64,000 nt of DNA from Candidatus Kaiserbacteria bacterium (lineage in GTDB: Bacteria; Patescibacteriota; Minisyncoccia; Phycocordibacterales; UBA918), in the NCBI GenBank assembly GCA_031430855.1, contig JANPCG010000015.1, positions 641 to 64,640 on the forward strand. Direction: 5' to 3'. The first letter of the stretch is position 1; every line of letters begins with the position of its first letter. Position numbers and translations under genes: made by a program. This document shows, piece by piece, positions 29,610 through 43,533 of this stretch. The notes beneath the pieces were generated by a model that was not told where the DNA came from, made no database searches, and was given only the letters and a program-made list of their open reading frames with translations.

Positions 29610-31082
29610 CTACCCAACCCTGTGTTCCTTGGCGATTTCTTTAAGCGCGGCAGCCTCTTCCTCCGCCAATTTATCCTTCCCTGCTTCAGCCATTGATAAT
29701 AACGCCGCTTCCGGCATGACCAAAAGCTCTAGAACCCTTGATTCTAAATAGTTTTCAATATTTTTCCCCGGGTCTACCAACACCTCTTCCAACAGTGCAT
29801 GCAGTATATATCCGAGCCTTTTCCCCGGCTTTTCCCCAGAAATAGTCATAATCCGGTCGCCGTTTATTTTGAGAAGTTTAACCGAAATTGGGTCACGTAA
29901 AGCCTCGTCAACCATGGCTTTGTACTTTCGAAAGCGAAACGGCTGTTCTTTCGGTCGGCCGGTACCAATTCGGTCGCACACCCGCAAATTAAGCAGGTTT
30001 TCAATGTTGTCTTCACCAATCCGTACGATTGTTCGTCGGACTGCACTGAGAGTTATTTCATCTGGATCGGAGAAAAACATATGCCAACGCACCAGTTTCT
30101 CCACTTCGAGGGTGGTTTCGCGGGGCAGCTTGAGTCGCTCGAGGATAATTTTGGTCATTCGTGCCCCGACGACCTCGTGGCCAAAGAAGGTGTAGTGTTT
30201 ATTTTTACCTCCCGTTCGTCTCGTGGCTGGTTTACCAATGTCATGGAGTAAGGCTGCTATACGAAGATTAGTTGAATGTCCTTTATCAGCTGCTGCTTGT
30301 AGGGTGCGCAAGAGATGTTCGTATACATCGTACGCATGGATGCCGCCTTGCTCACAGCCAATTGAAGCTTTAATTTCAGGTAAAATATAATCAATCATCC
30401 CTAATTTCTCAAGCATCACCATGCCTGCCATTGGGGTGTCTGAGTTTATCAATTTTATAAATTCAGCCGCAATTCGCTCAATGGCAATATGCGACAAGAG
30501 TGCATGATTAGCCATAATTCCAGCCATGGTATCGGCATCAATCATAAAATCGAGTTCGGCCGCCAGTCGAACCGCTCTCATCATCCGTAACGCGTCTTCG
30601 CTAAAGCGGGCACCAGCTTCCCCAACCGTTTTTAACCGTTTATCTCGAATGTCTGCAATTCCATCATATAAGTCAACGGTTTCGTGAGTAGCCAAGCGGT
30701 ATGCAATGGCGTTAATAGTGAAGTCCCGGCGCGCTAAATCTTCTGCCAGACTGACCCCAAAAGTAACAGAATCAGGTCGTCGTTTATCGGTATATTCCCC
30801 TTCCGCGCGGTACGGGGTTACTTCAATTATTCGCAGTCGTTCATCTTCGGTTTCGCTATTCTTTACTCCGACGGTACCGTAGTCATTATTACAAAAACTA
30901 TCTGGGAAAAGAGCTTGAATCTGGTCCGGATGAGCATTGGTCGTAAAGTCCCAGTCTTTCGGGGTGCGTCCTACGACCAGGTCGCGAACGCAGCCCCCCA
31001 CTAAATACGCCTCATAGCCAGCGCTCTCAAGTGTTTGTGCTACTTGTTTTACTTCGAGGGGAACTGAAGTAAGGGATATCAT
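29610..31082 (-). CDS. cca: CCA-adding tRNA nucleotidyltransferase / poly(A) polymerase family with a C-terminal HD domain
   Basis: GGCVRDLVVGRTPKDWDFTT head-domain motif; HD motif LLHDIGKP. Confidence 0.85.
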   Translation of the reverse strand: MISLTSVPLEVKQVAQTLESAGYEAYLVGGCVRDLVVGRTPKDWDFTTNAHPDQIQALFPDSFCNNDYGTVGVKNSETEDERLRIIEVTPYRAEGEYTDKRRPDSVTFGVSLAEDLARRDFTINAIAYRLATHETVDLYDGIADIRDKRLKTVGEAGARFSEDALRMMRAVRLAAELDFMIDADTMAGIMANHALLSHIAIERIAAEFIKLINSDTPMAGMVMLEKLGMIDYILPEIKASIGCEQGGIHAYDVYEHLLRTLQAAADKGHSTNLRIAALLHDIGKPATRRTGGKNKHYTFFGHEVVGARMTKIILERLKLPRETTLEVEKLVRWHMFFSDPDEITLSAVRRTIVRIGEDNIENLLNLRVCDRIGTGRPKEQPFRFRKYKAMVDEALRDPISVKLLKINGDRIMTISGEKPGKRLGYILHALLEEVLVDPGKNIENYLESRVLELLVMPEAALLSMAEAGKDKLAEEEAAALKEIAKEHRVG

Positions 31083-31170
31083 AATCTCGTCATTGTACCA
31101 GAATTACATTGCTTTTTCGCCTCAGTGCGCGTATTATTTCAACCACTACATTGGCTTCGCTTAATGTACT

Positions 31171-31242
31171 GCACCCGTGGTGAAGTGGATATCATTACTG
31201 ACTTCGGATCAGTCGTCGGGGGTTCGAGTCCCTCCGGGTGCA
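31171..31242 (+). tRNA. tRNA-Arg(TCG), no encoded CCA
   Basis: Manual cloverleaf: acceptor GCACCCG/CGGGTGC; anticodon stem ACTGA/TCAGT with loop CTTCGGA; T-arm GGGGG-TTCGAGT-CCCTC. Confidence 0.85.
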
Positions 31243-31291
31243 CAAATTGGCCGACCCTAATGCGCAAGCATTGGGGTCGTTGCCATTTGTC

Positions 31292-31412
31292 GCGACCGGA
31301 GGGACTCGAAAAGACGCAGCGGGGCCCCTCTGGGCCGCGGCGTCTGGGGTCGAGCGAATGAGGTAATTTATGAACGAAGTGAAATAAATTACCCATGAGA
31401 GTGACCGAGTCC
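31292..31412 (+). repeat. Structured repeat element Y (family 1). It begins with an inverted copy of the tRNA-Arg T-arm/acceptor, then a GC-clamp hairpin, then a hairpin with loop GAACGAAGTGAA, and ends ...CATGAGAGTGACCGAGTCC.
   Basis: Paralogous to 31547..31617 and, in reverse orientation, to 43409..43533. The stems differ but remain complementary. Confidence 0.6.
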
Positions 31413-31451
31413 TTTTGAAAAGCGTTACGCGACTCGAAACCCGATTGAGTT

Positions 31452-31524
31452 GGATTAGGAGCGAAGCGAACTAATCCAACCAATTGGGATACTGAACCTG
31501 TAAGGTTCGAGTCCCCTGTCCCAG
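31452..31524 (+). repeat. Structured repeat element A (family 2): hairpin with loop GAGCGAAGCGAA, then CCAATTGGGATACTGAACCTGTAAGGTTCGAGTCCCCT
   Basis: Paralogous to 32859..32929. The 5-bp stem GAACC/GGTTC co-varies with GAACT/AGTTT in the other copy. Confidence 0.55.
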
Positions 31525-31546
31525 GAGAGGTGTGTTTAATGCTACT

Positions 31547-31617
31547 TCTGGGGTCGAGCGAATGAGCTTTATTGCAAACGAAGTGTAGCAATAAAGCCAT
31601 GAGAGAGACCGAGTCCC
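31547..31617 (+). repeat. Structured repeat element (family 1, partial copy lacking the GC clamp): TCTGGGGTCGAGCGAATGAG-hairpin(loop AAACGAAGTGTA)-CCATGAGAGAGACCGAGTCC
   Basis: Flanks identical to element Y. The stem sequence is entirely different but complementary, which is compensatory change. Confidence 0.6.
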
Positions 31618-31772
31618 TCCAAAAGCATTTCTACACTCAAAAGGTTGCCAGCTATTTTAAAAATTACGATTCAATTCATCTTAATTTCCACCACCTTCCT
31701 TCTTTTAGTTGACTCCCCCTTTATTTTTGCTACTCTTTTGCCATATCTTGTTCCAATCAAGAGGTTTACGTA

Positions 31773-31927
31773 TGGCAAGTGCTAATGGCAGCGGTAGGCT
31801 CACTCCCGCACAGCTCGCCCGTGAAGACAAAAAGCGCTTGCAGAAGGCAAAACGTCTCGCTCGCAAAAAGGCAGTGGCTGAATCTGCAAAGGTTGTCCCC
31901 CGCTCGGGCGCGCGCACCCTCTATTGA
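31773..31927 (+). CDS. Small basic protein (51 aa), possibly bS21-like; good RBS (AAGAGG)
   Basis: MASANGSGRLTPAQLAREDKKRLQKAKRLARKKAVAESAKVVPRSGARTLY. Lys/Arg-rich with a C-terminal ...LY, as in S21-type proteins. Confidence 0.4.
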
Positions 31928-32028
31928 TGTCGCGAAATGAACATCTAACCGCCCGGATAATATCCGGGCGTTCTGTTTATTACCATAAAATGAACACTGG
32001 TCTTAGTATATAATATACACACTTTGTT

Positions 32029-32709
32029 ATGCCAAAAGTTGCTCACTATAAAGAGGAAGCCTATCAACAAGCCCTCTCCTTTCGACGTCGCGGTTTTACC
32101 TATCGTGAAATAGCGAAGATTTGCAACGTTTCTGTGAGTACATTAAGTAATTGGTTAGCGCACGAACCGTTCTCTACTGAGGTTGCTAAAGATAATATAC
32201 GCAAAGCAACGAATGAAAACACCAAACGTCTCGTGCTAATAAACAAGGCTCGTATCTCAGAGCGTAAACTTCAATACAGTGAAGTGGTCCGTCAGGCTGT
32301 TGTTGAGTATCAGAATTATCATACCAATCCCCTGTTTATTGCGGGGATAATGGTTTATGCGAGTCAGGGAGATGTACATAATGAGAAAGTGATTCGTCTT
32401 TCAAACAGTCGAACTGACCAGCATCGTATCTTTATACGCTTCCTAACAACGTATTTAGGGGTTGAGAAGGCAAAAATTAGGATATGGCTGCTGCTTTATC
32501 CAGATCACGATGAAATTGCGTGTATGAAGCATTGGTGCAAGAAAACAGGCATATCAGTCGCCCAGTTTTATAAAAACCAAGTAATTACAAGTCGTAGCCA
32601 CAAACCAACATTGCATTTTGGGGTCGGTAATACTATAATCGGCAGTACTCTTTTGAAGAAGAAGCTTAAGAAGTGGATGGAGCTAATGTCAAAAGAGCTT
32701 GAGAAATAA
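32029..32709 (+). CDS. HTH-domain protein of unknown function (N-terminal resolvase- or transposase-like HTH; no recognisable catalytic domain)
   Basis: GFTYREIAKICNVSVSTLSNWL helix-turn-helix. 226 aa. Lies between two tRNA genes and is surrounded by repeat elements. Confidence 0.5.
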   Translation: MPKVAHYKEEAYQQALSFRRRGFTYREIAKICNVSVSTLSNWLAHEPFSTEVAKDNIRKATNENTKRLVLINKARISERKLQYSEVVRQAVVEYQNYHTNPLFIAGIMVYASQGDVHNEKVIRLSNSRTDQHRIFIRFLTTYLGVEKAKIRIWLLLYPDHDEIACMKHWCKKTGISVAQFYKNQVITSRSHKPTLHFGVGNTIIGSTLLKKKLKKWMELMSKELEK

Positions 32710-32714
32710 AAGCT

Positions 32715-32785
32715 GCGGCCATGGTTAAGTGGTATAATGAGTCCTTGCCAAGGATTAGTCGGGGTTTCGATTACCCCTGGCCGCA
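32715..32785 (+). tRNA. tRNA-Gly(GCC), no encoded CCA
   Basis: Acceptor GCGGCCA/TGGCCGC; anticodon stem AGTCC/GGATT with loop TTGCCAA; T-arm GGGGT-TTCGATT-ACCCC. Confidence 0.85.
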
Positions 32786-32792
32786 CAAATCT

Positions 32793-32825
32793 AAAAAGAC
32801 CCGAGCTTCTGCTCGGGTCTTTTTA
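32793..32825 (+). terminator. Rho-independent terminator immediately after tRNA-Gly
   Basis: AAAAAGACCCGAGC-ttct-GCTCGGGTCTTTTT. Confidence 0.75.
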
Positions 32826-32858
32826 GATTTTGCTTGGGTAATCGAAAGACCAATAGAG

Positions 32859-32929
32859 CCAGATTTGAAGCGAAGCGCACCAATCTGGCCAATTGGGTTA
32901 CTGAACTCGTAGAGTTTCGACTACCCCTT
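32859..32929 (+). repeat. Structured repeat element B (family 2). It is preceded at 32835-32848 by an inverted copy of the tRNA-Gly T-loop (GGGTAATCGAAA).
   Basis: CCAGATT-tgaagcgaagcgcac-CAATCTGG, then CCAATTGGGTTACTGAACTCGTAGAGTTTCGACTACCCCT. Paralog of element A. Confidence 0.55.
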
Positions 32930-33402
32930 AAGTTAGTAGCAGGTTGCGTGGCAATCGAAAGAACTTGTCTGCTATTTTTTAAGTAAAAACGAGAAAGTTG
33001 CGACAAGGTGTGCTGCTCCAGTAAGTAGTCGATTACCTATGTCTGGTTTGCAACTAAAAGTAAGTAAATGAACTACTGACCGTCAGTTTCAATCACTACA
33101 AACATTACCCTACGTTCTCTGTCCTCTAAAATTACGAAATATAAAAGCACTCGCACCTGTGCACAACTTGTCTAACATGTGTATAAAGGACAGTCGTAAA
33201 AGACACATATCTTTGAATAGTACGGCCCGATATATAGCTTTCGGGATTAATTCTGTGTATAATTATAAAATTTTGTGTACCACGTGAAACGTGTTACGTA
33301 CACCTGTAATTATAGCCTTATATAAAAAAGTTACACATGAAACCAACGTATTCTAAAAAAAATTATCAAAAAGGCTGAATCTGGCTGCTATACTAGTTCC
33401 AT

Positions 33403-33816
33403 ATGGAACAAAAAGAGAAGTTAAAACTTAAAACTAAAGAAACTGGGAATAAAGGAGAGTTAATTTGTGCCCGGTACCTTAAAAGTGAGGGATTTACTCT
33501 AATTGCAATGAATTATCAAAAAAAGTGGGGTGAAATTGATGTTATTGTGCAAAAAGCCAATAAAATTCACTTTGTTGAAGTAAAAACAGTTTCATATGAA
33601 ACGAAGGACGATCTTGATTATGCAGTTGCACATGGAACGTGGCGGCCAGAAGATAATGTTCATCAAAATAAATTAATTAAACTATCTCGAGTAATTCAGA
33701 CCTGGATTATCGAACACAAGTGGTCTGGCGACTTTCAAATTGACGTTGCGGCGATAAGAATTGTACCACGTGAAACGTATGCACGTATTAATATCATTGA
33801 AAATATTATTCTGTAA
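33403..33816 (+). CDS. yraN: YraN-family (UPF0102) endonuclease-like protein
   Basis: GELICARYLKSEGFTLIAMNYQKKWGEIDVI core. The start codon sits inside a GTTCCATATGGAAC palindrome. Confidence 0.7.
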   Translation: MEQKEKLKLKTKETGNKGELICARYLKSEGFTLIAMNYQKKWGEIDVIVQKANKIHFVEVKTVSYETKDDLDYAVAHGTWRPEDNVHQNKLIKLSRVIQTWIIEHKWSGDFQIDVAAIRIVPRETYARINIIENIIL

Positions 33817-33877
33817 TGATTTCACGTGAAATGGTTTCATATGGAACTTTAAATTTTATTACTTATACAATCCAAAC

Positions 33878-34266
33878 ATGAAATTTCTCGTTACAGGAAG
33901 ATCAACTAGAATCCCTGAAGTGATTGATGTTATGGAAAGGATAAAACACCTAGGATATAAGATTAGCTTTGACTGGCCAGTACTTCCAATGGTAAAGCCA
34001 TATGAAGATAATCAAGAAAAAGCTGCGTAATTCGCAGAATCGGCAATTAATGGGATTATATCGGCAGACGTTTATGTTTTGTTTGCCCATGGAGATGGAG
34101 CCGGTGTTTTTGCAGAATTAGGTGCTGCTCTAGGTGTTGCGCAGTTACATGGGAAACTGAAAATTTATTCTTTTTCAAACTCAATTCCTCCTGCTATATT
34201 CCACTAACACCCTTAATTTGCTGGGTTAACAGTCTTGATGAAGTGTTTATTGATTTAGTTAAGTAA
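33878..34266 (+). pseudogene. Nucleoside 2-deoxyribosyltransferase-like gene disrupted by an in-frame TAA and a -1 frameshift
   Basis: MKFLVTGRST...ISADVYVLFAHGDGAGVFAELGAAL...ICWVNSLDEVFIDLVK is recovered only by joining three frames. Confidence 0.5.
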
Positions 34267-34286
34267 ATTGATTTAGAAAACAATAA

Positions 34287-34320
34287 GAAAATCACTAGTT
34301 TCATATGAAACTAGTGATTT
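34287..34320. terminator. Perfect 34-nt palindrome AAAATCACTAGTTTCATATGAAACTAGTGATTTT. Bidirectional terminator between the pseudogene and tRNA-Pro; carries the GTTTCATATGAAAC motif.
   Basis: Seen directly. U-tracts on both sides. Confidence 0.6.
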
Positions 34321-34328
34321 TCTTATTG

Positions 34329-34399
34329 TCGGGGAGCAGGGAATCGAACCCTGACCATCCGGTCCCAAACCGGATACACTACCACTATGCTACACCCCG
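34329..34399 (-). tRNA. tRNA-Pro(TGG), no encoded CCA; C1-G72 as in bacterial tRNA-Pro; one T-T mismatch in the acceptor stem
   Basis: T-arm CAGGG-TTCGATT-CCCTG; anticodon stem TCCGG/CCGGA with loop TTTGGGA. Confidence 0.8.
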
Positions 34400-43378: not shown

Positions 43379-43408
43379 ATGTAAATTATACCAAATTATA
43401 CTAAATGC

Positions 43409-43533
43409 TGGTGAGAAGAATCGGTCACGAGTTACTGACTATAATTGTTCACTTCGTTCCAATTCTAGTAAGTACTCTCGACCCCAACGCGCCGGCCCAG
43501 AGGGGTCCCGGCTTGCGTCCTTCGATTCTTCAC
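43409..43533 (-). repeat. Family-1 structured repeat element X, in reverse orientation relative to the tRNA-Arg copy. Includes partial copies of the tRNA-Trp 3' end.
   Basis: Its reverse complement aligns to 31292..31412. Shared blocks are GACGCA-GC-GGG-CCCCTCTGGGCCG, TGGGGTCGAG and the GAACGAAGTGAA loop. GGTGAGAAGAATCG is shared with tRNA-Trp. Confidence 0.6.

What the first reader, a model, noticed from the sequence alone, without database searches (positions are those of the whole stretch)
31660..32790. Two-gene cassette (small basic protein plus HTH protein) inserted between tRNA-Arg and tRNA-Gly and bracketed by the repeat elements
Between the two tRNA genes lies a 51-aa Lys/Arg-rich protein with a strong RBS (AAGAGG, 8 nt upstream), ending ...RTLY like bS21-type proteins. 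It is followed by a 226-aa protein with an N-terminal resolvase- or transposase-like HTH (GFTYREIAKICNVSVSTLSNWL) and a C-terminal domain I cannot place. It contains LLLYPDHDE and no obvious DDE, HUH or tyrosine/serine recombinase signature. Structured repeats lie on both sides (families 1 and 2 upstream, family 2 downstream). This layout suggests a small, possibly novel, tRNA-associated mobile or regulatory module.
Basis: partly seen in the sequence, partly recalled or inferred. Interest (0 to 1): 0.55.

Follow-up and report, generated by a model that had tools for sequence, protein, structure and literature searches.

The report
Conserved tRNA-linked HTH–LAGLIDADG-like gene
The "cassette" is not a mobile insert: its larger gene belongs to an undescribed family of DNA-binding proteins, probably derived from a homing endonuclease, that across the tiny-celled Patescibacteria almost always sits directly in front of a tRNA gene, here tRNA-Gly.

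Summary
All described features are present: tRNA-Arg(TCG), a 51-aa basic ORF (31772-31927), a 226-aa HTH protein (32029-32709), tRNA-Gly(GCC) 5 nt after its stop, and structured repeats on both sides.

The "inserted, repeat-bracketed mobile cassette" reading fails.
- **HTH gene.** It is conserved, under purifying selection (dN/dS about 0.1) and syntenic. In 48 related Paceibacteria loci and 76 of 77 metagenomic relatives of a sister subfamily it lies just 5' of, or overlaps, tRNA-Gly(GCC). Other paralogues precede tRNA-Arg, Gly(TCC) or Val genes.
- **Small ORF.** It is real but restricted to close relatives, with its own RBS and terminator. It is not bS21.
- **Repeats.** They are tRNA-trailer elements, each carrying a copy of the preceding tRNA's T-arm. 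They follow tRNAs in many genomes and are not cassette ends.

The biochemical function is inferred, not shown.

The parts
31171..31243 (+). tRNA-Arg(TCG); the CCA end is not encoded
   Evidence: ARAGORN; Rfam tRNA, 60.5 bits. It lies upstream of the HTH gene in most related loci, at 137-3241 nt.
31282..31310 (+). Reverse-complement copy of the tRNA-Arg 3' half plus trailer
   Evidence: Inverted repeat I3, 29 nt, 79% complementary to 31223-31251. Other loci show the same layout: tRNA, hairpin, antisense copy of the tRNA 3' half.
31343..31412 (+). Family-1 repeat, copy a
   Evidence: Direct repeat D1. Its hairpin stem is fully compensated relative to copy b while the loop AACGAAGTG is kept. The hairpin matches positions 18-56 of model R1.
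31428..31527 (+). Family-2 tRNA-trailer element, copy a. Three-way junction; the outer stem carries the tRNA-Arg T-arm sequence
   Evidence: R1, 99 bits. In the consensus structure 28 of 31 pairs show compensatory changes. Absent, together with 31547-31616, from the close relative L061.
31547..31616 (+). Family-1 repeat, copy b
   Evidence: D1, 79% identical to copy a. Lies in the 204-nt block that is missing from L061.
31709..31736 (+). Candidate promoter of the small ORF: TTGACT, 16 nt, TACTCT (inferred)
   Evidence: Read from the sequence. The same block is conserved in L058 and L061. The consensus scan did not report it.
31759..31764 (+). Shine-Dalgarno sequence AAGAGG, 7 nt before the ATG of the small ORF
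   Evidence: Sequence. The equivalent site in L058 is AGGAGG.
31772..31927 (+). 51-aa Lys/Arg-rich ORF; a lineage-restricted small protein of unknown function
   Evidence: Only 3 homologous clusters among 5.8 billion sequences (69-90% identity, 50-51 aa). Each one looked up lies about 100 nt upstream of an HTH-gene orthologue. L003 carries a 54%-identical copy in the same slot. dN/dS is 0.24-0.34. No Pfam family matches.
31950..31980 (+). Intrinsic terminator of the small ORF (9-bp G+C-rich stem followed by a T tract)
   Evidence: Terminator scan. The stem is kept through compensatory changes in L058.
31973..32028 (+). Conserved promoter/operator block of the HTH gene: TGTTTAT..AAAATGAACA..AGTATATAATATACAcACTTTGtt. 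The palindrome GTATATAATATAC is at 32006-32018. No Shine-Dalgarno sequence
   Evidence: The block is alignable in loci whose proteins are only 43-77% identical. The palindrome (2 or fewer mismatches) is within 45 nt of the start in 43 of 48 loci, with only 6 other matches in 425 kb. It is unique in the 64-kb window.
32029..32709 (+). 226-aa HTH + LAGLIDADG-like protein (type A). The HTH is residues 14-44 (nt 32068-32160). A long basic helix is residues 47-97. The LAGLIDADG-like domain is residues 98-226 (nt 32320-32706), with motif helix PLFIAGIMVYASQGD
32715..32786 (+). tRNA-Gly(GCC), starting 5 nt after the HTH stop codon; inferred to be co-transcribed
   Evidence: The stop-to-tRNA gap is 0-19 nt in the related loci. 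No terminator lies between the two genes.
32787..32830 (+). Perfect 20-bp palindromic hairpin with A/T-rich flanks, directly after tRNA-Gly; terminator-like
   Evidence: Inverted repeat I6, 100% complementary. A comparable ~19-20-bp hairpin follows the tRNA in 19 of the 19 loci examined.
32837..32936 (+). Family-2 element, copy b; the outer stem carries the tRNA-Gly T-arm sequence (GGTAATCG / CGACTACC)
   Evidence: R1, 87.3 bits; alignment.
32950..33048 (+). Family-2 element, copy c; degenerate, in tandem with copy b
   Evidence: R1, 47.5 bits, E 5.9e-13.

Best explanation
**What the locus is.** It is a conserved, vertically inherited Patescibacteria locus, not an insertion. The 226-aa gene encodes three parts: an N-terminal helix-turn-helix, a long basic helix, and a single C-terminal LAGLIDADG-like domain. 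That makes it a protein derived from a homing endonuclease, built on the same logic as WhiA.

**How it is expressed (inferred).** It is transcribed from its own strongly conserved promoter, which carries the gene-specific palindrome GTATATAATATAC. No terminator separates it from tRNA-Gly(GCC) 5 nt downstream, so the two are very likely co-transcribed. The protein and the tRNA would then share one promoter.

**The wider family.** The gene is the 'type A' branch of a large family (at least 735 clusters at 50% identity). Members examined here sit immediately 5' of a specific tRNA gene. This pattern is best explained by an ancestral free-standing homing endonuclease that settled next to its tDNA target.

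**Likely function (inferred).** In the type A branch the canonical catalytic acid is no longer constrained, and it is Gln in this window. The protein most likely now acts as a sequence-specific DNA-binding protein. It probably binds the promoter palindrome as a dimer and so autoregulates the protein-tRNA-Gly transcription unit.

**The other features.** The 51-aa ORF is a separate, young, lineage-restricted small basic protein gene. It occupies the variable slot between tRNA-Arg and the HTH promoter. The flanking repeats are tRNA-trailer elements tied to the tRNAs, not to the genes between them.

**Shown versus inferred.** Shown: conservation, synteny, tRNA linkage, purifying selection, fold and motif similarity, the conserved promoter palindrome, and the independence of the repeats. 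Inferred: co-transcription, dimeric DNA binding, autoregulation, loss of nuclease activity, and the homing-endonuclease origin.
For: **Conservation.** There are 609 homologues, the 120 listed being 62-98% identical and almost all 221-242 aa, all from Patescibacteria sources. 53 genome loci were recovered, of which 49 are real relatives.

**tRNA linkage.**
- tRNA-Gly(GCC) follows the gene within 0-19 nt in these loci. In 5 loci a tandem paralogue takes that position instead.
- In a metagenome sample of the sister subfamily, 76 of 77 genes with enough downstream sequence abut or overlap tRNA-Gly(GCC). The gap ranges from -23 to +124 nt with a mode of -15, which places the stop codon in the D-loop.
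- All 7 weaker paralogues in those loci abut tRNA-Gly(TCC), Val(GAC), Gly(GCC) or Arg(TCG).
- Type C paralogues sit directly upstream of tRNA-Arg(TCG), 15-16 nt in the loci computed, in 7 loci.

**Vertical descent.**
- Identity to the window's protein correlates with that of the neighbouring CCA-adding enzyme (r = 0.70, 33 loci). It is similar in level to that of the neighbouring yraN gene.
- dN/dS is 0.11 against L058.

**Fold.**
- hhalign aligns the family motif PLFxAGxxLYWgEGDK..SNsDP..FL with the second LAGLIDADG motif of I-DmoI (E 2.6e-4, probability 42%). The I-DmoI sequence was verified against 2vs8.

**Catalytic position.**
- The residue aligned with I-DmoI E117, which is essential for catalysis (PMC3384342), is Q113 here.
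- Across 121 type A proteins it is E in 60% and A, V, Q, T, I, L or S in about 40%.
- The wider family keeps GEGDK.

**Promoter palindrome.** It is present in 43 of 48 loci and is almost absent elsewhere.

**Precedents.** WhiA is a LAGLIDADG + HTH autoregulator, and I-TevI is an endonuclease that represses its own gene (PMC3384342).
Against: **The fold assignment is only moderately supported.**
- Foldseek against the PDB and against viral models gives nothing significant.
- No Pfam LAGLIDADG family matches any of the 34 diverse members tested.
- The five AlphaFold2 models range from pLDDT 58 to 83.
- The domain modelled on its own folds poorly, at pLDDT 61.
- The model places an extra helix and a disordered loop between strands 3 and 4.

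**Catalysis may not be lost.**
- D115, two residues after the canonical acid, is 97% conserved in type A and could conceivably substitute for it.
- The glutamate is still present in 60% of orthologues.

**There is no direct evidence** of DNA binding, autoregulation or co-transcription.

**The operator idea is not general.** Palindromes are not enriched upstream of the sister (type B) genes. The type A palindrome also overlaps a TATAAT-like box and may simply be promoter sequence.

**Sampling bias.** All loci were found through the protein. The frequency of tRNA-Gly(GCC) genes that lack it is therefore unknown.
Confidence: 0.55

Rival explanations
1. The protein is still an active, free-standing LAGLIDADG homing endonuclease. 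It would cut tRNA-Gly(GCC) loci that lack it and be copied in by repair, much as T4 SegB promotes inheritance of the T4 tRNA gene region. Its position next to the tRNA would be its homing site.
For: - The family is precisely and specifically linked to particular tRNA genes, and sometimes overlaps them.
- Type B and type C copies are sporadic: tandem type B in 5 of 49 loci, and type C before tRNA-Arg in 7 loci.
- The wider family keeps the GEGDK motif, which aligns with I-DmoI E117 and K120.
- D115 is 97% conserved in type A.
- SegB is a precedent (PMC2330249).
Against: - The canonical acid is Q in the window and non-acidic in about 40% of type A proteins.
- The gene is present in every related locus sampled, at a fixed syntenic position. 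Its divergence tracks the neighbouring genes, and dN/dS is 0.11. This is unlike the gain, decay and loss cycle expected of a selfish endonuclease.
- No empty sites or degenerate copies were seen.
Confidence: 0.15
2. The C-terminal domain is not LAGLIDADG-derived. The protein would then be an ordinary HTH transcription factor with a novel effector or oligomerisation domain, and its tRNA linkage would reflect only operon history.
For: - Foldseek finds no significant match. Its best hits are OmpA-like or YfiB domains, at E 0.03 or worse.
- There is no Pfam LAGLIDADG hit.
- AlphaFold2 confidence is variable.
- hhalign probability is only 13-43%.
Against: - The only sequence-level hit falls exactly on the LAGLIDADG motif helix and the following strand of I-DmoI, with matching GLY.AEGDK and N.....L...F..FL spacing.
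- It leaves unexplained why every paralogue is tied to a tRNA gene.
Confidence: 0.15
3. The protein acts on RNA. It would be a maturase-like factor that binds the nascent ORF-tRNA transcript and helps, or gates, 5' processing of the adjacent tRNA.
For: - The ORF ends 0-19 nt before the tRNA, or inside it. In the overlapping cases RNase P cleavage would remove the stop codon, coupling translation to tRNA processing.
- Some LAGLIDADG proteins act as intron maturases (established knowledge).
- A long helix with invariant Asn, Arg and Lys residues (N64, R67, K73, R75, R79) could contact nucleic acid.
Against: - The HTH matches DNA-binding families (HTH_23, resolvase HTH, sigma-70 region 4).
- No RNA-binding domain was detected.
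- A conserved DNA palindrome lies at the promoter.
- There is no evidence of RNA binding.
Confidence: 0.1
4. One reading: a small mobile two-gene cassette that inserted between two tRNA genes, delimited by the repeat elements.
For: - The tRNA-Arg to HTH interval is variable between genomes, from 137 to 3241 nt with different genes.
- The small ORF is restricted to close relatives.
- The repeats vary in copy number.
Against: - The HTH gene is never absent and is always fixed to tRNA-Gly.
- The repeats follow tRNAs in genomes with quite different intervening genes, and carry the sequence of their own tRNA.
- The two genes are separate transcription units.
- There is no recombinase or transposase domain.
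Confidence: 0.03

Closest known systems
WhiA / DUF199 (bacterial LAGLIDADG-derived transcription factor; PDB 3hyi, 8dy9)
   Same: - A LAGLIDADG-type domain is fused to a helix-turn-helix domain.
- The catalytic acid is not required.
- It is a conserved, vertically inherited host gene.
- WhiA regulates its own gene (PMC3384342).
   Different: - WhiA has two LAGLIDADG-like domains at the N-terminus and the HTH at the C-terminus. This protein has the HTH at the N-terminus, a 50-residue helix, then a single domain, which would need to dimerise.
- There is no sequence match to the WhiA Pfam families.
- WhiA is not linked to tRNA genes.
I-DmoI and other LAGLIDADG homing endonucleases (I-CreI, I-CeuI, I-Tsp061I, PI-PfuI)
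   Same: - The family motif LYWgEGDK..SNsDP aligns with I-DmoI LYVAEGDKTLKRLRIWNKNK.
   Different: - The gene is not in an intron or intein.
- It is not sporadic.
- The window protein has Q at the position of the catalytic E117, and a non-basic residue at the position of K120.
- It carries an added N-terminal HTH.
- The model has an extra helix and loop between strands 3 and 4.
Phage T4 SegB (free-standing GIY-YIG homing endonuclease in the tRNA gene cluster)
   Same: An endonuclease-type gene embedded among tRNA genes, whose position is tied to the inheritance of that tRNA region (PMC2330249).
   Different: - A different nuclease family.
- A phage gene, and optional.
- The present gene is chromosomal, universal in its clade, and probably non-catalytic.
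Serine recombinase / transposase HTH domains
   Same: The N-terminal HTH scores against HTH_7 (resolvase), HTH_23, HTH_28 and HTH_Tnp families.
   Different: There is no catalytic recombinase or transposase domain. The rest of the protein resembles a LAGLIDADG domain instead.

Membership tests
LAGLIDADG homing endonuclease | [quoted passage not shown] | tested here: inconclusive
   - Foldseek is not significant.
- The model has an insertion between strands 3 and 4, and model confidence is variable.
LAGLIDADG homing endonuclease | LAGLIDADG motif helix ending in a conserved catalytic Asp/Glu (I-DmoI D21/E117) | tested here: not met
   - The motif helix is present (PLFIAGIMVYASQGD).
- The aligned catalytic position is Q113 in the window.
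- Only 60% of 121 orthologues have E there.
- The wider family does keep GEG.
LAGLIDADG homing endonuclease | Sequence match to the Pfam LAGLIDADG_1, _2, _3 or WhiA families | tested here: not met
   - Pfam finds no such hit for the window protein at E up to 1, and none among the 25 best-populated families for 34 diverse members.
- The only support is a weak hhalign hit to I-DmoI, E 2.6e-4.
LAGLIDADG homing endonuclease | Selfish genomic behaviour: intron, intein or free-standing location with a patchy distribution | tested here: not met
   Type A is present at the same syntenic site in all 48 related loci, and its divergence tracks the neighbouring genes. The type B tandem copies and type C copies are patchy.
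LAGLIDADG homing endonuclease | Site-specific DNA cleavage | not testable with these tools
   This needs a nuclease assay.
WhiA / DUF199 | Two N-terminal LAGLIDADG-like domains plus a C-terminal HTH; match to the WhiA Pfam models | tested here: not met
   The domain order is reversed, there is a single domain, and there is no Pfam WhiA hit. Only fold resemblance remains.
Serine recombinase / resolvase or IS transposase | Catalytic domain (Ser-recombinase, DDE, HUH or Tyr) | tested here: not met
   Only the HTH matches. NCBIfam transposase models score E above 0.01, and only over the HTH.
Ribosomal protein bS21 (for the 51-aa ORF) | Match to Ribosomal_S21; broad conservation | tested here: not met
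   There is no Pfam hit apart from a chance-level HHH_5 match at E 0.03. Only 3 homologous clusters exist, all in close relatives.
Mobile cassette or MITE bounded by terminal repeats | Repeats mark the ends of a unit that is present or absent as a whole | tested here: not met
   - The repeats are tied to tRNAs in 41 of 44 cases.
- They occur with different intervening genes.
- They vary independently of the genes, as in the 204-nt indel in L061.

The most novel reading that the evidence does not exclude
The HTH-LAGLIDADG-like family and the tRNA-trailer three-way-junction elements would be two halves of one previously unrecognised tDNA-centred system in Patescibacteria.

In this reading, endonuclease-derived proteins each recognise one tRNA gene. 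The trailer elements carry an antisense copy and a sense copy of that tRNA's 3' half. They would be either the footprints or immunity insertions of tDNA-targeted homing, or RNA switches that control maturation of the neighbouring tRNA.

tRNA genes would then be dedicated hubs of a selfish or regulatory system in these reduced genomes.
Probability: 0.12. Interest if true: 0.85.

Novelty: new variant of a known kind. Interest (0 to 1): 0.6.

Why it matters
**A gene family defined by its position.** A protein family whose members examined here are encoded directly in front of a specific tRNA gene, sometimes overlapping it, is unusual. This holds for 124 of the 126 type A and type B genes that could be scored. 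I found no description of it in Pfam, NCBIfam, PHROGs, Rfam or the searchable literature.

**A second domestication.** If the domestication reading is right, this is a second, independent case of a LAGLIDADG endonuclease becoming a host DNA-binding protein, after WhiA. It occurs in a phylum with very few known regulators.

**A testable handle.** It offers a way to study how tRNA gene expression is organised in Patescibacteria.

**Practical use.** The family is currently annotated as 'XRE-family regulator', 'transposase' or 'hypothetical', so this gives it a name. The flanking structured repeats should be studied as tRNA-linked elements, not as transposon ends.

Tried and rejected
- **Family libraries.** Pfam, NCBIfam and PHROGs on the 226-aa protein return HTH hits only. 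My first Pfam and PHROGs query for the small ORF used a frame shifted by one base (31773). It was repeated in the correct frame for Pfam only.
- **Sequence search of the PDB.** With the protein alone there was nothing. With profile A2 there were HTH hits only.
- **Foldseek.** Searches against the PDB and against the viral model library (BFVD) gave no significant match. The afdb50 library was unavailable.
- **Domain-only AlphaFold2 model.** Residues 98-226 gave pLDDT 61 and were not used.
- **hhalign.** Against I-CreI and against the N-terminal domain of I-DmoI there was no signal.
- **Rfam.** At E up to 10 over 31050-33400 it finds only the two tRNAs, plus terminator-driven chance hits such as Leu_leader.
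- **Metagenome scan.** The scan was redone with the YWGEGDK subset.
- **Palindromic operators.** I tested whether they are a general feature upstream of type B genes. They are not enriched: 9% against 6% upstream of other genes.
- **Retroelement primer-binding site.** I considered this for the antisense copy of the tRNA 3' half. I rejected it because the copy matches the genomic trailer, not CCA.
- **Hammerhead-like junction.** I considered this for family 2. The junction sequences do not fit, judging by inspection.
- **L054.** The second half of this locus is an inverted duplicate, probably an assembly artefact, and was ignored.
Full report
**Observation**

- tRNA-Arg(TCG) is at 31171-31243 and tRNA-Gly(GCC) at 32715-32786, both on the + strand.
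- Between them lie a 51-aa Lys/Arg-rich ORF and a 226-aa ORF at 32029-32709.
- The small ORF's true coordinates are 31772-31927. AAGAGG lies 7 nt upstream of its ATG.
- Pfam, NCBIfam and PHROGs recognise only an N-terminal helix-turn-helix in the 226-aa protein (HTH_23, resolvase HTH_7, sigma-70 region 4; residues 7-44). They find no catalytic recombinase or transposase domain.
- Two repeat families flank the genes.

The window comes from a Patescibacteria genome of the Paceibacteria/Kaiserbacteria type, judging by the source names of the homologues.

**The 226-aa gene is a conserved core gene fixed to tRNA-Gly(GCC)**

The large protein database returned 609 homologues. The 120 listed are 62-98% identical, almost all 221-242 aa, and all come from Patescibacteria sources. 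A scan of one genome per species gave 49 real relatives at 43-74% identity.

In these loci the gene's stop codon lies 0-19 nt before a same-strand tRNA-Gly(GCC). The exception is 5 loci where a tandem paralogue is interposed, and that paralogue then abuts the tRNA.

The whole neighbourhood is syntenic: CCA-adding enzyme, tRNA-Arg(TCG), a variable interval, this gene, tRNA-Gly, a yraN-like gene, tRNA-Pro(TGG).
- Identity of the protein to the window copy correlates with that of the neighbouring CCA-adding enzyme (r = 0.70 over 33 loci).
- It is on a par with the yraN-like gene.
- Against a relative that is 81% identical, dN/dS is 0.11.

**A tRNA-linked superfamily**

A profile search of 1.84 billion representative proteins found 735 clusters at E 1e-10 or better, nearly all about 220 aa. 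Their consensus motif is PLFxAGxxLYWGEGDK...SNxDP.

I sampled the sister subfamily ('type B', 31-35% identical to the window protein) from metagenomes through the YWGEGDK motif.
- 76 of 77 genes with enough downstream sequence abut or overlap tRNA-Gly(GCC).
- The most common arrangement is a 15-nt overlap. The ORF reads into the tRNA and stops at TAA or TAG in the D-loop.
- All seven weaker paralogues present in those loci also abut tRNAs: Gly(TCC) three times, Val(GAC) twice, Gly(GCC) once, Arg(TCG) once.
- A third type ('type C', 24-29% identical) sits directly upstream of tRNA-Arg(TCG), 15-16 nt in the loci computed, in 7 of the genome loci.

The window has only the one member. In summary, type A and type B are near-universal next to tRNA-Gly(GCC). 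Tandem type B copies and type C copies are patchy.

**What the C-terminal domain is**

An AlphaFold2 model built on 35 orthologues reached pLDDT 83, although the five models ranged from 58 to 83. It shows the HTH, a 50-residue helix (residues 47-97), and an alpha/beta domain.

Evidence for a LAGLIDADG-like fold:
- hhalign of the family profile against I-DmoI aligns the motif helix and the following strand with I-DmoI's second LAGLIDADG motif (IAFIKGLYVAEGDKTLKRLRIWNKNKALLEIVSRWL). The E-value is 2.6e-4 and the probability 42% (repeated locally).

Evidence against:
- Foldseek finds nothing significant.
- Pfam LAGLIDADG models do not match.
- The isolated domain models poorly.

I therefore treat 'LAGLIDADG-like' as probable, at roughly 70%, not established.

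The residue aligned with I-DmoI E117 is one of two acids essential for catalysis (PMC3384342).
- It is Gln113 in the window protein.
- It is Glu in only 60% of 121 orthologues.
- The wider family keeps GEGDK.
- Asp115 is 97% conserved in type A, so residual activity cannot be excluded.

**Expression signals**
- The small ORF is followed by a terminator at 31950-31970 plus a T tract. Its stem is maintained by compensatory changes in a relative.
- The 226-aa gene then has its own upstream block of about 55 nt. This block is alignable across loci whose proteins are only 43-77% identical: TGTTTAT..AAAATGAACA..AGTATATAATATACAnACTTTGnnATG, with no Shine-Dalgarno sequence.
- The palindrome GTATATAATATAC lies within 45 nt of the start in 43 of 48 loci. 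It has only 6 other matches in 425 kb and is unique in the 64-kb window.
- No terminator lies between the ORF and tRNA-Gly. A perfect 20-bp hairpin follows the tRNA.

From this I infer a single transcription unit (ORF + tRNA-Gly) and a plausible operator for a dimeric protein. Palindromes are not generally enriched upstream of type B genes. The operator idea therefore applies, at most, to type A.

**The small ORF**
- Only three homologous clusters exist (69-90% identity, 50-51 aa). There is also a 54%-identical copy in L003.
- Every copy lies about 100 nt upstream of an orthologue of the 226-aa gene.
- dN/dS is 0.24-0.34, which fits a real but fast-evolving small protein.
- It matches no Pfam family, including Ribosomal_S21.
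- Slightly more distant relatives carry YdjM, a deaminase and other ORFs in the same interval, or almost nothing. The interval ranges from 137 to 3241 nt.

The small ORF is therefore the lineage-specific part of the locus. The HTH gene is not.

**The repeats**

Family 2 is a roughly 100-nt three-way-junction element. In an alignment of 21 copies from the window and 17 other loci (18 genomes in all), 28 of 31 predicted pairs show compensatory double changes.

A covariance model (R1) finds three copies in the window: 31428-31527, 32837-32936 and 32950-33048. It also finds 41 strong copies in the 52 other loci searched.
- 41 of the 44 strong copies lie 46-345 nt downstream of a same-strand tRNA-Arg, tRNA-Gly or tRNA-Pro.
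- Weaker copies occur in the type B lineages.

The outer stem differs according to the tRNA:
- GGGACTCG/CGAGTCCC after tRNA-Arg.
- GGTAATCG/CGATTACC after tRNA-Gly.
- GGGAATCG/CGATTCCC after tRNA-Pro.

Its 3' strand, together with what follows it, is a copy of that tRNA's T-arm and acceptor 3' strand. The general layout is: tRNA, a perfect ~19-20-bp A/T-flanked hairpin, an antisense copy of the tRNA 3' half, the conserved core, then a sense copy of the tRNA 3' half.

A close relative (L061) lacks a 204-nt block comprising family 2a and family 1b, yet keeps both genes. The repeats are therefore tRNA-trailer elements. They 'bracket' the genes only because the genes lie between two tRNAs. Their own nature (RNA switch, att-like scar of a miniature insertion element, or something else) is unresolved. 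They are not in Rfam 15.

**Most likely mechanism**

The gene encodes a homing-endonuclease-derived, HTH-bearing DNA-binding protein that has become a fixed host gene.
- The family's universal position at the 5' edge of specific tRNA genes is most simply explained by ancestral free-standing homing endonucleases that targeted conserved tDNA. T4 SegB in the T4 tRNA cluster is a comparable case (PMC2330249).
- In the type A branch, relaxation of the catalytic glutamate, strong purifying selection elsewhere in the protein, strict synteny and a dedicated promoter palindrome all point to a non-catalytic role. That role would probably be autoregulation of the shared protein-tRNA-Gly transcript.
- WhiA, and I-TevI acting as its own repressor, are the precedents (PMC3384342).

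The rivals are listed separately with their tests: a still-active endonuclease, a non-LAGLIDADG regulator, an RNA-binding processing factor, and the mobile cassette.

**Novelty and verdict**

I found no description of this family or of its tRNA linkage in Pfam, NCBIfam, PHROGs or four literature searches. Recent work on patescibacterial tRNA introns does not mention it (PMC13011429).
- The finding as written, a mobile two-gene cassette, is not supported.
- What lies beneath it is a new variant of a known kind: a LAGLIDADG-derived protein with an unusual, near-obligate gene-to-tRNA linkage.
- Biochemical function remains inferred.
- Sampling was protein-first, so the frequency of tRNA genes without such a neighbour is unknown.

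Noticed in passing
window 31428-31527, 32837-32936, 32950-33048 (weak: 43405-43486 on the - strand); L001-L049 and several of L064-L143: Family-2 repeat is a conserved three-way-junction element of about 100 nt that is absent from Rfam. 28 of 31 pairs covary. 41 of 44 strong copies lie 46-345 nt after a same-strand tRNA. Its outer stem and 3' flank duplicate the 3' half of that tRNA, and an antisense copy precedes the core. It could be an RNA switch or the scar of a miniature tDNA-targeting insertion element.
   Followed up: partly
window 32787-32830 and 34280-34329; 19 loci: tRNA genes are followed directly by a perfect ~19-26-bp palindromic hairpin with A-rich and T-rich flanks. It looks like a bidirectional terminator, and sometimes the palindrome extends into the tRNA acceptor 3' strand.
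   Followed up: partly
window 33330-34311; 40 of 50 type A loci: A 14-nt palindrome, GTTTCATATGAAAC, is clustered here: 5 of the 7 window matches, against 0.47 expected by chance. In other genomes it always lies between tRNA-Gly and tRNA-Pro. It sits at fixed offsets to the yraN-like gene: -75/-45, over the start codon, +186, +222, and just after the stop. It is a candidate operator set with an unknown binder.
   Followed up: partly
L066, L075, L078, L087 and about 35 other metagenome loci: In type B genes the ORF overlaps tRNA-Gly(GCC) by 10-23 nt, with the stop codon in the D-loop. RNase P cleavage would therefore leave a non-stop mRNA. This implies that translation and tRNA processing are mutually exclusive or coupled.
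   Followed up: partly
window 31343-31412 and 31547-31616: The two family-1 copies have fully compensated 10-bp stems and a conserved loop, AACGAAGTG. Their flanks (..CGAATGAG / CCATGAGAG..) could form a kink-turn-like internal loop. The hairpin resembles the long arm of family 2 (R1 partial hits).
   Followed up: no
window 29610-31082 (- strand): The CCA-adding enzyme next to tRNA-Arg is unusually conserved, at 62-89% identity across loci where the neighbouring proteins are 41-76% identical. The two tRNA genes read at the 3' end (Arg, Gly) do not encode CCA.
   Followed up: no
L054 (GCA_041749315.1, JBGTBO010000043.1): The second half of this locus is an exact inverted duplicate of the first, with genes mirrored around position ~7550. 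It is most likely an assembly artefact.
   Followed up: no
L040 (JBLHQB010000031.1): An 8.4-kb contig carrying the patescibacterial HTH gene, tRNA-Arg and tRNA-Gly is binned into a 'Patiriisocius sp.' (Flavobacteriaceae) MAG. This is probably bin contamination.
   Followed up: no
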